Positions 20,353-56,131 of a DNA stretch of 64,000 nt are shown in pieces. Location of the stretch: NCBI RefSeq assembly GCF_963921235.1, contig NC_086107.1, forward strand, positions 95,854,001 through 95,918,000, written 5' to 3'. Within the stretch, counting starts at the first letter, position 1, and every line of letters begins with the position of its first letter. The translations under genes were made by a program, and so were the position numbers. A model generated the notes under the pieces. That model worked only from the letters and a program-made list of their open reading frames with translations. It ran no database searches and had not been told where the DNA came from. The DNA comes from Mobula hypostoma (lineage: Eukaryota).

Positions 20353-20412
20353 GGACACAGCAAATTCAGTGAAGGAGAATTTTGGAAAGAAGTTGTACGA
20401 ATCGCTGCTGGT
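20353..20412 (+). CDS. GYS1: Glycogen synthase (muscle/GYS1-type), coding exon equivalent to human exon 9
   Basis: ctcctcctacAG acceptor and GTaagt donor; 60 nt; encodes (W)DTANSVKENFGKKLYESLL(V), matching GYS1 WDTANTVKEKFGRKLYESLLV; phase joins the next exon (GT|A = Val). Confidence 0.93.
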
Positions 20413-23555: not shown

Positions 23556-23634
23556 AGGGGAGTTACCAAATATGAGCAGGCTGATTGACCGGGAAGATAT
23601 CACCATGATGAAACGAGCATTGTTTTCTACCCAG
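23556..23634 (+). CDS. GYS1: Glycogen synthase exon (human exon 10 equivalent)
   Basis: tgcAG / GTgaga; 79 nt; GELPNMSRLIDREDITMMKRALFSTQ vs GYS1 GSLPDMNKMLDKEDFTMMKRAIFATQ. Confidence 0.95.
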
Positions 23635-24468: not shown

Positions 24469-24582
24469 CGACACTCGCTGCCTCCCATCTGCACTCACAA
24501 CATGTTGGATGATGCCACTGACCCGATCCTGAACACCATTCGACGCATTGGTTTGTTTAACCACCCCAATGACCGGGTAAAG
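24469..24582 (+). CDS. GYS1: Glycogen synthase exon (human exon 11 equivalent)
   Basis: ctctccAG / GTgaga; 114 nt; [38 protein letters not shown]. Confidence 0.97.
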
Positions 24583-30287: not shown

Positions 30288-30414
30288 GTGATCTTCCATC
30301 CAGAGTTCCTGTCATCCACCAGCCCACTGCTTCCACTTGACTACGAGGAGTTTGTACGTGGTTGTCATTTGGGAGTCTTTCCCTCGTACTATGAGCCTTG
30401 GGGTTACACGCCAG
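30288..30414 (+). CDS. GYS1: Glycogen synthase exon (human exon 12 equivalent), GT3 catalytic region
   Basis: tgtccAG / GTgagt; 127 nt; [42 protein letters not shown], containing the first Glu of the E-X7-E motif. Confidence 0.98.
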
Positions 30415-38666: not shown

Positions 38667-38762
38667 CCGAATGCACAGTGCTGGGAATTCCCAGTGTCTC
38701 CACTAACCTCTCTGGTTTCGGCTGCTTCATGGAGGAACACATCACAAACCCATCAGTATACG
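38667..38762 (+). CDS. GYS1: Glycogen synthase exon (human exon 13 equivalent)
   Basis: ttcctcttctAG / GTgagg; 96 nt; (A)[31 protein letters not shown](G). Confidence 0.97.
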
Positions 38763-39063: not shown

Positions 39064-39227
39064 GGATCTACATCTTGGATCGCCGCTTTAAGAGTCCGGA
39101 GGAGTGCTGCAATCAGCTCACCTCGTTTTTGTACAGCTTCTGTCAACAGTCCCGACGCCAGAGAATCATCCAGCGAAATCGAACTGAGCGCCTCTCTGAT
39201 CTGCTGGATTGGAACTACCTTGGCCGG
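39064..39227 (+). CDS. GYS1: Glycogen synthase exon (human exon 14 equivalent), regulatory arginine helix
   Basis: ctctcccAG / GTaaga; 164 nt; [55 protein letters not shown]. Confidence 0.98.
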
Positions 39228-50515: not shown

Positions 50516-50596
50516 TATTACAATCATGCCAGGCTTCTGGCTCTTGCCAAAGCTTTCCCCAATGAATTCAGCCACAACGTGTTAGGAGTTTCAAGT
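50516..50596 (+). CDS. GYS1: Glycogen synthase exon (human exon 15 equivalent)
   Basis: ttctttcAG / GTaagt; 81 nt; YYNHARLLALAKAFPNEFSHNVLGVSS vs GYS1 YYMSARHMALSKAFPEHF. Confidence 0.93.
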
Positions 50597-51654
50597 GTAA
50601 GTAACAAAATAAATTAATAAAACTGCACTAGGAATCAAAGAGAAGCTTGAGGAGGAAAAAGTCTGCCCCTCTCCCAGACATTATCCACACTTACCATGTC
50701 AGTGGCCAGAGATGGTATCTTTCCAATAAACAATAAAACATTCATCTCCCACTGTCTTCCATCTGTAGTTATGTTGACCAGTTCCTGCCTTTCTTTCCCT
50801 ATCTTTCCATCTGGTCTCTCATCTCCCCTTCCCCAAATGTCACCCTTTCCCCCTCCCAATCACATCCCATCCTAAAACCCATGAATAGCATCTCCATTCA
50901 CAGACTCCTGTTCTCACGCCTTTCCCAACCCTCAAACCCTACATCTACTGTCCCCGAACTCTTTCACTTTCTATATCCCTTTTCCCTCTGTCCCTTTGCT
51001 GAATCCCGTTTGAGTTTGTTTTTCACACTTCCCAGTCCTTTCCCGTTGTCCCTAGTAACCGTTCTCCTACTCAACCCCCATCTTCCCAATCCCTACATCC
51101 CTACCTGCCAATCCCATTTCCTCTTCCCTTATTTACTGTGTTCCCCAATTTCCCTGAAGTCCAGTAGCTCTGATCTCCTCAATCCCAATTCCCCATTCCT
51201 AGCAACCTTCCTAAACTTGGGGCTAGAAGCAGAAAACTTCAGAGATAGATAAAGTAGGGATGCAGGAGCTTCAGTAGTTGGTAAAACGCTTCATACAAGT
51301 TCTGGTCATCGAGAGATGCTGAACATTCTGGAGGTGGAGGTGGGTGAGCTTTAAGTCATAGTTTGGAATAAAGATAAGCAACTGGTTAGGATTCTACAGA
51401 TGGAATTTCTGGCTGCCTGGCTCAACTACATGGAACATTAGAAACTTCATCTTCCAGGCAACACGTATTCAGGAAGTAGAGGGAGGCTGATGTGACCTAT
51501 AGATTATGTTAGTCCTGGAGAGATGAAATTGAGATATAGTTGAGTGATACAGCACAGAAACAGGCTCTTCAGCAACCCCCTCCCCCCACTCGCATACCCA
51601 TACCAACGATCAAGTACCTAACTAAATAAGTCCCATTTCCCAGCACTTGGACCA

Positions 51655-52446
51655 CACAGCGGTCAACAAGTTTTTTCAAAAGTGTTGCTTCCTCAGATTT
51701 CATTTTGTTTTTTGTAGACCACTTCGACTCAAATATAGTTTAAGGCTACATGTATTGCATAGGAATTTGGAGAAAAACTAATTTTTATTGAATATAATGT
51801 GATTAATTGCATAATGGTGCTGATGCTTTGCTCAGCTCAACTAAGCTAAAAATGTTCTGTTGATTATTTTCATTTGTACTCAGTATATGAAGCTTCTCAC
51901 TTAAATGTCCAACAATAATCAGCCAGCATTGATGGATTCCAGTTGCCCTGATACTGTTTCTCCACGACAACAATGTCCTGGTGAGACCTTTCACCATGCT
52001 CAGCACTGACAGTGCCAAGATTTGCAAGGTGGAAGTCTAAATGGGAATGAAGAAAATGAATCTTTAGTGACATGTACTTTATAGTTTTGTATCCTTGAAG
52101 CATGTTGTCAACCGGCTGAATGTAGCTTGGTGCTCTGTAGTTGCCAAGAAAAATCTCAGCAGCACCCTTCAATGCATTCCATACAATTTTCTCCAGTCCC
52201 TCTACAAGTTCTTGGAATTGCCTGTCATTGATGACCTGTTTGATTTGTGGACCAACAAAAATCCCTTCCTTAATTATGGCATCGGTTATTCTGACTTGGA
52301 TTATGAATTGAAATGACAAATATGGACAATTTCAAACTTCGGTGTGTGTGAGATAGGGAAATATTGTGGTGATCTTCACAATCAGCAGCCAAAAATCCAT
52401 AAGATCCATACAAAAGTATTCACGAACTGATCTTTATTGTCCAGTG
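51655..52446 (-). mobile_element. Internally deleted DNA transposon, Chapaev3 (CMC)-like
   Basis: IKEGIFVGPQIK...MSLKIHFLHSHLDF..NLG.VS.EHGER.HQDI...YQG.W...LADYCW; terminus TTGTCCAGTG followed by TAA. Confidence 0.6.
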
Positions 52447-53559
52447 TAACTGACCACTGTTGAACTAGATACCTCTTAAATGCACTGAGACTCTCTGCTT
52501 CCTCAGGCTCTCAGGTTCCTGATCCCAGCCTCTCTTTTAGTAAATATGTTCCTCCTTAGACTTCTCCTCCAAATCTCTCCCCCTCACCCAAGGAAAACAA
52601 GACCAGCCACTCCAGTTTCGCAAAACTACATGCTTCATCCGCCCATAGCAGGCTTGAGACTTTCTCCAGTGCAGTCCTTCCTGTGGTATAACAGACAGAA
52701 TGTCACACAGCATGAACACACATACTGTGGCCTAACCAATCTTTAACAAAGTTTTCCATAAACTTCCAGCTTTTATATTTTAACTCCAGCAGATTGAGTG
52801 AAACATTTCACATACTTTATCCACCTGCACCCCCCACCTTCAGGGATCTTTAGACTTGTATCCCAAGCTCCCTCTGTTCCTTGATACTTCTGAGAGTCCT
52901 GCAGTTCACCGTGTATGTCCTGCACTTATTGGTCCTCCCTTGTACTTATCAGGATTAAATTCCATCTGTTCTGTTCTGCTCATTTTAACAACTGATCAAT
53001 ATTTTCCTGTAAACTGAGCCTCTCGTCTTCACAATCAACTACAACAACCAATCTTCATGAAATCTGTAAACTTGCAAATCATTTCTCTTACATTCATATC
53101 TGCATTATTAATGTAAATGGCAAACAGTGATAGTACCGACACCAGTCTGTGAGCAATTTTGAGCTGCAGTAAAGATTTGTTGACTCTCGAGAAGGTCCAG
53201 AGAAAAGTGCACAAGAAAAGTGCCAGGAAGGAGAGGATGACATTAGTCAGCTCCTGTCTTCTGGTGTCTCGCACATGGCTAGGGGAGATCAAATAAATCT
53301 CCAGCCAAGTTGCCAGAGATCTCTTCCCTCCCACGCACCTGAGGGTGCACTTGGTCAGGTCTCTGGGATTTATCCGCCTTTATACACCTTAAGACATCCA
53401 GCACTTCTTCTTTCTTAATGTCATCAACACAAAAGGTTCTGCAGGTGCTGGAAAGTCGAAGTAACACACACAGAATGATGGAGGAACTCAGCAGGTCAGG
53501 CAGCATCTGTGGAAAGGAATAAACAGTTGACCTTTTGGACTGAGACCCTTCAATTCTTT

Positions 53560-54484
53560 CTGCATTCCGCAGGGATCGCTCCCTACGCGACATCTTTCCC
53601 TCCCCCCCCCCCGCATTCCGCAGGGATCGCTCCCTATGTGACTCCCTTGTCCATTCGTCCCCCCCATCCCTCCCCACTGATCTCCCTCCTGGCACTTATC
53701 CGTGTAAGCGGAACAAGTGCTACACATGCCCTTACACTTCCTCCCTTACCACCATTCAGGGCCCCAAACAGTCCTTCCAGGTGAGGCAACACTTCACCTG
53801 TGAGTCGGCTGGGGTGATATACTGCGTCCGGTGCTCCCGATGTGGCCTTTTATATATTGGCGAGACCCGACACAGACTGGGAGACCGCTTTGCTGAACAC
53901 CTACTCTCTGTCCGCCAGAGAAAGCAGGATCTCCCGGTGGCCACACATTTTAATTCCACATCTGATTCCCATTCTGACATGTCTATCCATGGCCTCCTCT
54001 ACTGTAAAGATGAAGCCACACTCAGGTTGGAGGAACAACACCTTATATTCCATCTGGGTAGCCTCCAACCTGATGGCATGAACATCGACTTCTCTAACTT
54101 CCGCTAATGCCCCACCTCCCCCTCGTACCCCATCTGTTACTTATTTTTATACACACATTCTTTCTCTCACTCTCCTTTTTCTCCCTCTGTCCCTTACCCA
54201 TCCTCTGGGTCCCCCCCCCCTTGTCTTTCTTCCTGGACCTCCTGTCCCATGATCCTCTCGTATCCCTTTTGCCTATCACCTGTCCAGCTCTCGGCTCCAT
54301 CCCTCCCCCTCCTGTCTTCTCCTATCATTTTGGATCTCCCCCTCCCCCTCCAACTTTCAAATCTCTTACTAGCTCTTCCTTTAGTTAGTCCTGACGAAGG
54401 GTCTCGGCCTGAAACATCGACTGCACCTCTTCCTAGAGATGCTGCCTGGCCTGCTGCGTTCACCAACAACTTTTATGTGTGTCT
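53560..54484 (+). mobile_element. Penelope-like element 3' part: GIY-YIG endonuclease plus pLTR
   Basis: VIYCVRCSRCGLLYIGET..RL.DRF.EH...EEQHLI..LGSLQPDGMN; 12-bp TSD CTTCAATTCTTT (53548-53559 and 54485-54496); an older inverted pLTR lies at 53430-53550. Confidence 0.92.
54387..54422 (+). ncRNA. Minimal type I hammerhead ribozyme motif in the Penelope pLTR
   Basis: AGTC-CTGACGA-AGGGTCTCGGCCT-GAAA-C-ATC-GACT: stem I AGTC/GACT, conserved CUGANGA and GAAA boxes, NUH triplet AUC. Confidence 0.7.
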
Positions 54485-55298
54485 CTTCAATTCTTTATTC
54501 CTTTCATAACGTCTAAATGTTTCACGATATTACTGTCTCTCCCCTGGACTCACTGACCTCCCTGACCTCCAAGGTAAATATAGAAAGCTATTCACTCATG
54601 ACCTGACCCATCTTCTGTAGCTCCACACTGATCATTAAGGAACCTATTCTCTCCCGAGTTACCCCGTTTGCTCATAATATAATTATAGATCTTTCAGGGT
54701 TCTCCTGTACCTGGTGATAAGTGTTGAACCAGAGTCACCAGACCCACTGCACAGTCAGTCGTCCAACTTCTCTGAGAGCCTTCTGAATGTCTTCTCCAGC
54801 TTTCTTTCCTCCCCTTCCGCTACGAGTTCCATGAGCAGGTCCGGAAGGGAAGCTTGGGAAGCAATTCATCGGTGTGGTTAGTAACTCACTTCCCTCTCAG
54901 GGCTCTTGCACTTCCCCACTCTGTTTGTAGGAGACGACGTGCTGCAGCTGTTGTGTTCTGGAGCACGGCTGATGCGTTGCTGTGACGCACTCCCATCTGG
55001 AATAACCGGAGGAATTTCTTCGCCGAGTGCTTGGAGTTCGGAGAGTGCTGAAGGCAGAGACACTCGCCACATTTAACAAGGCTTCTCGACATGCAGCTGA
55101 ATCACCAAGGTGCAGAAGGCCAGTGACAACATGCTTTTCAGTGGGATTAGAACAGATGGGTACCCAATGATCATCACGGCCATGATGGGCCTTTCCTGTA
55201 CTACATGACTCAATAATGGAATTTTTGATGTATAAAGCTAATTGATATAATTGCCTATATCTAAAATAGTGACCAATTATCATTGTACTTTGTTTCAG

Positions 55299-55988
55299 AT
55301 TTACCACGTCTCAGACTTATCACCGTTCCCTGTGACCCCAGTCTTGTCTGTCCACACCACTTCTCACTACCGTAACACTGAAGATGAACAATATACTGAG
55401 GAAGGGGAGGCTGAGAAAGATCGTTCAAGTATCAAGCGGCAGTCCATCATGGACTTCCTCCCTGATCTGAATAGAAGTATCATGGAATCCATTGCGGCAT
55501 CAGCCAATCCCAGCATCAGTAGTTCTAGAAGGTCCAGCAAGCCTATCGATGACAACACCTTTGCCCATCCCACCATGCCCACTGAAGCCACCAGCCCAAG
55601 CAATTTTACAGATCCCAGCAGCTGGAGTAATCCCAATCCCACAAATCCTAATCCTACTAATCCCACCAAACTTGCTGATCCCAGCAGCCCAAGTAATCCC
55701 ACCAACCCTGCCGATCCCACCAATCCAAGCAGCTCAAGTAAACCCACCAATCCCAGCAGCTTGAGTACCACCAATCCCAGCAGCTCAAGCAACTCCACCA
55801 ATCCCAGCAGCTCAAGCAACTCCACCAATCCCAGTGGCTCAAGCAGCTCCACCAATCCCAGCAGCTCAAGTAATCCCACCAATCCCAGCAAACCCACCAA
55901 TCTCAGTAGCTCAAGTAATCCCACCAATCCCAGCAAACCCACCAATCCCAGTAGCTCAAGCAAGTCAACCAAGCCTGGTGGAATCTGA
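55299..55988 (+). CDS. GYS1: Glycogen synthase terminal coding exon (human exon 16 equivalent) with divergent regulatory tail and repeat extension
   Basis: ctttgtttcAG acceptor in phase 0; 229 codons to TGA; EDEQYTEEGEAEKDR matches the GYS1/GYS2 motif E-RYDE(D/E)EEA(A/E)(K/R)DR; PVTPVLSVHTTSH aligns to PPSPSLSRHSSPH. Confidence 0.85.
   Translation: MYHVSDLSPFPVTPVLSVHTTSHYRNTEDEQYTEEGEAEKDRSSIKRQSIMDFLPDLNRSIMESIAASANPSISSSRRSSKPIDDNTFAHPTMPTEATSPSNFTDPSSWSNPNPTNPNPTNPTKLADPSSPSNPTNPADPTNPSSSSKPTNPSSLSTTNPSSSSNSTNPSSSSNSTNPSGSSSSTNPSSSSNPTNPSKPTNLSSSSNPTNPSKPTNPSSSSKSTKPGGI
55590..55975 (+). repeat. Coding tandem repeat (27-, 18- and 9-nt units: TNPSSSSN(S/P), TNPSKP, NPT)
   Basis: Repeated ACCAATCCCAGCAGCTCAAG core; the reading frame stays open through the array. 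Confidence 0.9.
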
Positions 55989-56125: not shown

Positions 56126-56131
56126 AATAAA
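56126..56131 (+). terminator. Candidate polyadenylation signal of the glycogen synthase gene
   Basis: First AATAAA after the stop codon (~140 nt), followed by GT-containing sequence. Confidence 0.5.

What the first reader, a model, noticed from the sequence alone, without database searches (positions are those of the whole stretch)
55299..55400. Glycogen synthase that has lost the key inhibitory phosphosite (3a) and the CK2 priming site (5)
Seen in the sequence: the last exon begins IYHVSDLSPFPVTPVLSVHTTSHYRNTEDE and aligns without gaps to human GYS1 GYRYPRPASVPPSPSLSRHSSPHQSEDE. Established: CK2 primes Ser657 (site 5), GSK3 then phosphorylates Ser653, 649, 645 and 641 in 4-residue steps, and pSer641 (site 3a) is the dominant inhibitory site. 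This motif is strongly conserved in vertebrate GYS1 and GYS2. Here the 641-equivalent is Pro (CCG, 55323-55325), the 657-equivalent is Arg (CGT, 55371-55373), and the upstream RYPRP is gone. The middle acceptors survive as T/S/T at 4-residue spacing. A CK2-like TEDE lies 6 residues from the site-4 equivalent, off the GSK3 register. Inference: this enzyme may be largely uncoupled from insulin/GSK3 control, or may be regulated by a different kinase logic.
Basis: partly seen in the sequence, partly recalled or inferred. Interest (0 to 1): 0.78.

Follow-up and report, generated by a model that had tools for sequence, protein, structure and literature searches.

The report
Devil-ray glycogen synthase paralogue lacking Ser641
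Devil and manta rays carry an extra glycogen-building enzyme that has lost the main "off-switch" phosphorylation site of the vertebrate enzyme, but they also keep a normal copy, so this is an unusual spare copy and not a loss of control in the whole animal.

Summary
The exon at 55299-55988 is the last exon of a glycogen synthase matching Mobula hypostoma XP_062917579.1 at 100%. The 641-equivalent is Pro (CCG) and the 657-equivalent is Arg (CGT); a sequencing-run contig repeats both with no mismatch.

This is a second GYS1-type paralogue of sharks and rays ("copy B"). Mobula also encodes "copy A", whose tail is canonical in 14 of 14 species.

Copy B's tail eroded in steps. Arg638 is gone in 8 of 8 batoids, Ser657 in 4 of 17 species, and Ser641 only in the two Mobula species (Pro, Leu). 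Sites 645, 649 and 653 stay S/T in 17 of 17, and the catalytic, G6P and arginine-cradle residues are intact.

Most likely this is an active, G6P-responsive enzyme with weakened tail inhibition. The main rival is a one-residue slip to Ser640, kept in 8 of 8 batoids, by five-residue GSK3 priming from Thr659. Orthology of A versus B is unresolved and nothing is tested biochemically. No earlier scan note bore on this.

The parts
20353..20412 (+). internal coding exon of glycogen synthase copy B (about aa 400-419 of P0003); earlier exons were not found in the window
   Evidence: exact match to P0003; AG/GT flanks read
23556..23634 (+). internal coding exon (about aa 420-445)
24469..24582 (+). internal coding exon (about aa 446-483)
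30288..30414 (+). internal coding exon holding the conserved EPWGYTP catalytic motif
38667..38762 (+). internal coding exon (about aa 526-557)
39064..39227 (+). exon encoding the regulatory helix with the intact arginine cluster (human R579, R580, R582, R586, R588, R591)
50516..50596 (+). penultimate exon, donor GT at 50597, phase 0
   Evidence: exon-limited contig cover in runs X1 and X4
55299..55988 (+). coding part of the last exon, to stop TGA 55986-55988
   Evidence: 100% match to aa 640-868 of P0003; X1 contig 55299-55797 with 0 differences
55314..55316 (+). Asp in place of Arg638 (RYPRP motif lost)
   Evidence: Arg absent in 8 of 8 batoid B proteins
55320..55322 (+). Ser640, candidate substitute acceptor
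   Evidence: Ser in 8 of 8 batoid B proteins
55323..55325 (+). Pro (CCG) in place of Ser641, site 3a; Leu in M. birostris
55335..55361 (+). retained middle ladder T645-P646, S649, T653 (sites 3b, 3c, 4)
   Evidence: the only 4 of 25 tail columns with no change across 17 B proteins, S and T counted alike
55371..55373 (+). Arg (CGT) in place of Ser657, site 5
   Evidence: also Arg in Pristis and Narcine, Ser in Hemitrygon
55377..55388 (+). T659-E-D-E, the only S/T with an acid at +3 in the scored tail stretch
55629..55960 (+). coding tandem repeats (periods 9-45 nt) giving an Asn/Pro/Ser/Thr-rich C-terminal extension typical of copy B
56126..56131 (+). AATAAA, likely polyadenylation signal
   Evidence: contig cover ends in the bin before it

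Best explanation
This is the regulatory tail of an intact, probably expressed, second GYS1-type glycogen synthase of elasmobranchs (copy B). SHOWN: the catalytic core, G6P site and arginine cluster are unchanged. The tail evolves fast while a paralogue (copy A) keeps the canonical tail. Arg638 was lost in batoids, Ser657 in several non-skate batoids and Ser641 in the Mobula lineage; the three middle acceptors are held. FROM KNOWN STRUCTURES: pSer641 is what locks the tetramer through Arg588/Arg591, so that lock cannot form as in human GYS1. INFERRED: the Mobula B enzyme has a higher resting -/+G6P activity ratio and a blunted response to CK2+GSK3. It is set mainly by G6P, with residual damping from T645/S649/T653, S640 and N-terminal serines. 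Redundancy with copy A (and a probable GYS2) allowed the loss, so insulin/GSK3 control of glycogen synthesis in the animal is not lost.
For: Identity and gene model. Second copy in both Mobula species. Both copies recorded in 11 species. Copy A keeps R638 and all five sites in 14 of 14; Mobula versus Narcine differ at 0 of 28 tail positions in A and 20 of 28 in B, while cores differ at 25 and 64 of 591. R331, K337, H501, E510, E518, R579, R580, R582, R586, R588 and R591 are present in both Mobula B proteins. Position 641 is Pro in one Mobula and Leu in the other, so no new residue is being conserved there. S/T641 is present in 205 of 210 scored glycogen synthases; the 5 exceptions are the two Mobula B proteins and three tails that look out of frame (79 proteins without a scorable tail were dropped, and many rows are isoforms or near relatives). 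Role of pS641: passages and Discussion of PMC9188544, passages of PMC9287172.
Against: No activity or phosphosite data exist. The middle acceptors are conserved and S640 is kept in 8 of 8 batoids, which suggests the tail still does regulatory work. PMC9188544 argues for redundancy between phosphosites, and both structure papers say N- and C-terminal sites contribute together, so losing one site may change little. Expression rests on contigs of runs whose RNA status is a guess, and the splice joint itself was not among the rows shown. Tissue and level of expression are unknown. GYS2 in Mobula was not fetched; it is inferred from catshark primers only.
Confidence: 0.55

Rival explanations
1. Register slip: regulation is kept but re-wired. 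CK2 phosphorylates T659, GSK3 walks T659, S654, S649, T645, S640 by 5-5-4-5 steps (or a proline-directed kinase primes T645-P), and pS640 fills the arginine cradle in place of pS641.
For: S640 in 8 of 8 batoids; 645/646/649/653 unchanged in 17 of 17 (chance that all three sites fall among 4 invariant columns of 25 is 0.0017, a post-hoc figure). The chain exists in both Mobula species; random placement of the other 3-4 S/T gives such a chain in 41 of 1540 or 397 of 7315 cases. Pristis, also R657, has a CK2-type T658 five residues from T653. 'Four or five residues' priming: passage in PMC3275790. R588/R591 are kept.
Against: S640 and S654 also occur in Hemitrygon, which keeps S641 and S657, so they predate the loss. 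The arginines also stabilise the tetramer, so their conservation does not show a phospho-ligand. Three five-residue steps in one ladder is unusual (my recall, not from a call). The chain was noticed after the fact in an S/T-rich tail. A relative in run X4 shows a variant that removes T659 while having S657 (variant list incomplete).
Confidence: 0.25
2. Inhibition has moved to the N-terminus, as proposed for C. elegans GS, which also lacks S641. The Mobula model has two tandem site-2/2a-like pairs (S8/S11 and S17/S20).
For: P0003 and P0121 begin with an extension that places R6, S8 and S11 ahead of the S17/S20 pair homologous to Pristis S8/S11. R579/R580 are kept. Precedent in the Discussion of PMC9188544.
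Against: The first exon is outside the window and the start codon is a RefSeq prediction. No Arg stands at -3 of either serine. The tail-docking W18 is not kept (N-terminal alignment is weak).
Confidence: 0.1
3. Copy B is a minor, dispensable gene in early decay, and the tail changes have no physiological consequence.
For: The B core evolves about twice as fast as A. Position 641 differs between two close species. The tail carries expanding low-complexity repeats.
Against: The open frame and key residues are intact; only 4 of 591 core differences separate the two Mobula species. B is recorded in 17 shark and ray species. The middle phosphosites are still held.
Confidence: 0.07
4. Artefact: assembly error or wrong last exon.
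For: The joint row was not displayed in the read lay, and no whole genome could be searched for another exon.
Against: X1 contig identical over 499 nt starting exactly at the acceptor; X4 contig aligns from the acceptor with 1040 further letters upstream and the same depth (11.4) on the penultimate exon; no cover in the unique intron bins flanking both exons. The same exon is modelled in M. birostris, Hemitrygon and Pristis. A full-length skate B protein lies on 2.6 kb contigs.
Confidence: 0.03

Closest known systems
Human/vertebrate GYS1 (muscle glycogen synthase; PDB 7Q0B, 7ZBN, 8CVX and related)
   Same: Best solved-structure match, 1175.6 bits. Catalytic, G6P and arginine-cluster residues are kept. 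The tail aligns in register with sites 3b, 3c and 4 retained.
   Different: No S641, S657 or R638; P654 is Ser. A roughly 180-residue Asn/Pro/Ser/Thr repeat extension replaces the human C-terminal end. The N-terminus is divergent.
Elasmobranch copy A (XP_062918097.1; the 'gys1' of the catshark study PMC11136554)
   Same: About 69% identical in alignment.
   Different: Its tail is canonical and almost invariant (14 of 14 keep all sites), it is about 726 aa, and it forms a separate clade at 100/100. The catshark gys1 primers match A (6/6, 7/7), not B (4/6, 5/7).
Copy B of other sharks and rays (RefSeq 'muscle-like', e.g. Pristis XP_051898824.1, Hemitrygon XP_072889737.1)
   Same: Same clade (100/100 for the 11 B rows; Hemitrygon not in the tree because it is partial), the same long repeat tail, and the same retained middle sites.
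   Different: All 15 non-Mobula B proteins keep S641.
C. elegans GSY-1
   Same: Also lacks S641 (PMC9188544 Discussion).
   Different: It also lacks R588/R591 according to that paper, whereas Mobula B keeps both.

Membership tests
Eukaryotic glycogen synthase (Pfam PF05693) | full-length match to the family model | tested here: met
   1128.6 bits, model positions 1-629 of 639, for P0003
Eukaryotic glycogen synthase (Pfam PF05693) | catalytic/UDP-glucose residues R331, K337, E510, E518 (positions recalled, not from a call) | tested here: met
   present in both Mobula B proteins
Eukaryotic glycogen synthase (Pfam PF05693) | G6P site R579, R582, R586 (PMC9287172) plus H291, E292, Q294, K301, H501 (recalled) | tested here: met
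Eukaryotic glycogen synthase (Pfam PF05693) | enzyme activity and glycogenin binding | not testable with these tools
   needs expression and assay
Canonical GSK3-regulated vertebrate GYS1/GYS2 tail | site 3a Ser641 | tested here: not met
   Pro in M. hypostoma, Leu in M. birostris
Canonical GSK3-regulated vertebrate GYS1/GYS2 tail | CK2 priming site 5 Ser657, four residues from site 4 | tested here: not met
   Arg; nearest CK2-type site is T659
Canonical GSK3-regulated vertebrate GYS1/GYS2 tail | Arg638 / YPRP motif before site 3a | tested here: not met
   Asp; absent in 8 of 8 batoid B proteins
Canonical GSK3-regulated vertebrate GYS1/GYS2 tail | sites 3b, 3c, 4 at four-residue spacing | tested here: met
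   T645, S649, T653
Canonical GSK3-regulated vertebrate GYS1/GYS2 tail | arginine cradle R588/R591 | tested here: met
Canonical GSK3-regulated vertebrate GYS1/GYS2 tail | N-terminal sites 2/2a with a basic residue at -3 | tested here: inconclusive
   serine pairs present, no Arg at -3; first exon outside the window
GYS1 one-to-one orthologue | clade with bony-vertebrate GYS1 to the exclusion of copy A | tested here: inconclusive
   A and B both lie apart from GYS2 (100/100) but their branching with GYS1 is open. AU tests on 23 rows reject none of five arrangements: p 0.465, 0.308, 0.212, 0.053, 0.152
GYS1 one-to-one orthologue | conserved neighbouring genes | not testable with these tools
   no genome held; three downstream ORFs tested gave only a reverse-transcriptase hit

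The most novel reading that the evidence does not exclude
Sharks and rays keep a third vertebrate glycogen synthase, one of A and B being an ancient duplicate lost in bony vertebrates. In mobulids copy B has become a naturally de-repressed, G6P-only enzyme with a tissue-specific job, or the first natural case in which the GSK3 ladder has slipped by one residue onto Ser640. The series shark, skate, sawfish, stingray, Mobula would then be a ready-made natural mutant panel for what each site of the hierarchical ladder contributes.
Probability: 0.2. Interest if true: 0.75.

Novelty: new variant of a known kind. Interest (0 to 1): 0.5.

Why it matters
Site 3a is the textbook effector of insulin/GSK3 control, and it was present in essentially every intact tail among the glycogen synthases fetched here (205 of 210). 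A natural enzyme that keeps the arginine cradle and sites 3b, 3c and 4 but lacks 3a and 5 tests directly the question left open in PMC9287172: how much sites 2/2a versus 3a contribute, and why the middle sites are conserved. It also shows that elasmobranch 'gys1' studies cover only one of two muscle-type genes. Interest is tempered because the protein is already in RefSeq, a canonical copy coexists, and relaxation of regulatory tails in duplicate genes is a familiar pattern.

Tried and rejected
AlphaFold models of Mobula B and A had mean pLDDT 45.8 and 47.1 with the tails under 50, so they say nothing on tail docking; no fold search was run on them.

The 50%-representative search returned unnamed, mostly distant or fragmentary proteins; the 8 of 150 that I read included no cartilaginous-fish GYS2. 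Listing members of GYS2 and GYS1 clusters (at most 15 shown per cluster) showed none either, so GYS2 in Mobula is not shown.

The run search listed no holder on record as RNA; this is not evidence either way. Laying contigs over the repeat-rich intron filled the joints table with transposon joints (15 rows shown, 401 not), so the exon joint was not displayed. The X4 variant list is partial (290 rows not shown), so its residue 641 is unknown.

Trees could not assign orthology. I rejected the reading that T659 is site 5 displaced by an insertion, because copy A and several non-mammalian GYS1 have both S657 and T659. I rejected a conserved new Ser-Pro kinase site at S640-P641, because M. birostris has Leu641. 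I set aside Arg335 as damaging: the column varies (S, T, N, M) and a distant family member has Arg there (P0305).

Five look-ups in earlier scan notes gave one unrelated bacterial note.

Literature: (search listings) and term searches in the mobulid genome preprint 10.64898/2026.10.27.761883 (0 hits for gys, glycogen, insulin in the main text) found no description of copy B or of the S641 loss. The library lacks most subscription papers, and preprint supplements could not be seen. Searches did not yield a passage with activity ratios of single-site S641 mutants.

Full report
What is in the window. The stretch 55299-55400 opens the last exon of a glycogen synthase gene on the + strand. Two exons used as queries both returned one protein at 100% identity, P0003, recorded as Mobula hypostoma XP_062917579.1, 'glycogen synthase, muscle-like', 868 aa. 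Eight exons in the window spell residues 400-868 of it exactly, with AG/GT ends. The junction 50596 to 55299 is phase 0 and is the one in that model.

Is it real and in register? Run X1 holds a contig of 499 nt that starts exactly at 55299 and has no difference from the window. Run X4, from a relative, has a 1449-nt contig that aligns from 55299 and shows the same depth on the penultimate exon. The unique intron bins beside both exons have no cover. The ungapped register scores 37 against 16 for the next offset, and Hemitrygon, Pristis and Rhincodon score 62, 85 and 86 at the same register. phmmer prefers a two-residue gap that pairs human S657 with T659. Copy A and several non-mammalian GYS1 carry both S657 and T659, so Arg657 is the true replacement of site 5. 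No canonical alternative last exon was found in the window.

Mobula hypostoma and M. birostris each have a second muscle-type protein (XP_062918097.1, XP_072128514.1), which I call copy A; the gene in the window is copy B. Both copies are recorded in 11 shark and ray species among those listed (the largest A cluster showed 15 of 35 members). Copy A keeps R638 and all five acceptors in 14 of 14 sequences, with one substitution in the whole 633-657 block. Primers for catshark 'gys1' in PMC11136554 (passages read) match A, and its 'gys2' primers match bony-vertebrate GYS2 better than either copy. Three genes are therefore likely, although no cartilaginous-fish GYS2 protein was fetched. In a 43-row tree A and B are each one clade at 100/100 and both lie apart from GYS2, but their branching with bony-vertebrate GYS1 is open. 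AU tests on 23 rows rejected none of five arrangements. Whether B is the GYS1 orthologue or an extra duplicate is unresolved.

How the tail of copy B changed (17 proteins). Sharks are close to canonical. R638 is absent in 8 of 8 batoids. Position 657 is Arg in Narcine, Pristis and both Mobula, and Ser in Hemitrygon, Rhinoraja and the sharks; in two skates the aligner puts a gap there, but ungapped counting gives Ser. S641 is lost only in Mobula, as Pro in one species and Leu in the other. Against this churn (3.4 changes per tail column against 0.63 in the core), the only columns of 25 with no change, counting S and T alike, are 645, 646, 649 and 653. S640 is kept in 8 of 8 batoids. Of 289 fetched proteins with the core anchor, 210 had a scorable tail, and 205 of these have S/T641. 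The exceptions are the two Mobula B proteins and three tails that look out of frame (rows include isoforms and close relatives). The enzyme core is sound: the catalytic residues, the G6P site and all six arginines of the regulatory helix are present, and the two Mobula species differ at 4 of 591 core positions.

How it most likely works. In human GYS1, pS641 sits in a pocket formed by R588 and R591 of two subunits and holds the tetramer inactive; G6P binding through R579, R582 and R586 overrides this (PMC9188544, passages and Discussion; PMC9287172, passages). Mobula B has the pocket but not the serine, nor the usual priming site. I infer a weakened C-terminal brake, a higher resting activity ratio and control mainly by G6P (confidence 0.55). 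It is not cut off from insulin: in mouse muscle the G6P route carries much of insulin-stimulated glycogen synthesis (PMC3046837, passages), and copy A remains canonical.

Rivals. The serious rival (0.25) is a slipped ladder. GSK3 priming is described as four or five residues away (PMC3275790, passage), and T659, S654, S649, T645, S640 form such a chain in both Mobula species; random placement gives one in about 3-5% of cases. That test is post hoc, and S640 and S654 predate the loss of S641. A second rival (0.10) is take-over by N-terminal serines, as suggested for C. elegans, which also lacks S641; the Mobula model has two S-x-x-S pairs at its start, outside the window. Inconsequential decay (0.07) and artefact (0.03) fit the data worst. 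Structure prediction was uninformative.

Novelty. The protein is a member of the glycogen synthase family and already annotated, but it fails three defining features of the canonical GSK3-regulated tail. I found no description of copy B or of this loss; the library is partial and preprint supplements were closed. PMC4370744, PMC11876434 and two preprints were seen as term-search passages only and added nothing on this point. Verdict: a real, new variant of a known kind. It is less dramatic than first read because a canonical copy coexists, and it is useful as a natural mutant series. Interest 0.5.

Noticed in passing
window 55629-55960 and B proteins P0004, P0007, P0134, P0148, P0149: Every copy B protein measured carries a long low-complexity C-terminal extension (100-408 aa past the acidic patch) built from lineage-specific Asn/Pro/Ser/Thr or Pro-rich repeats, against about 45-55 aa in copy A and mammalian GYS1. 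It could be a glycosylation or multi-phosphorylation surface; unexplained.
   Followed up: partly
P0003/P0121 residues 1-20 (first exon, outside the window): The Mobula models have an 8-residue N-terminal extension creating a second site-2/2a-like pair (S8/S11) ahead of the homologous S17/S20.
   Followed up: partly
copy A proteins (P0256, P0257, P0171 and others), N-terminus: Copy A has also lost the R-x-x-S motif of site 2 and the tryptophan at 18 while keeping a perfect C-terminal ladder, so neither elasmobranch muscle-type copy has the textbook AMPK/PKA site-2 motif.
   Followed up: no
This may reflect a chromosome fusion in Mobula.
   Followed up: no
P0272 (Callorhinchus milii): The one chimaera protein fetched groups weakly with copy B (80/82), has Leu at 638, all five acceptors and a long divergent tail.
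   Followed up: partly
P0003 residue 344 (human 335), outside the window: Arg replaces Ser/Thr next to the catalytic Lys in Mobula and Hemitrygon B only.
   Followed up: partly
window 1-50500 and 51400-54500: The introns are packed with fragments that look like LINE reverse transcriptases, Tc1-type transposases and short interspersed repeats (ORF list; very high contig depth at 51800-54500; one downstream ORF confirmed as RVT_1). The intron before exon 20353 appears to exceed 20 kb.
   Followed up: no
P0161, P0282 (bird GYS1 models): Their tails read out of frame at the same GC-rich motif and would falsely look like site losses in a database survey.
   Followed up: no
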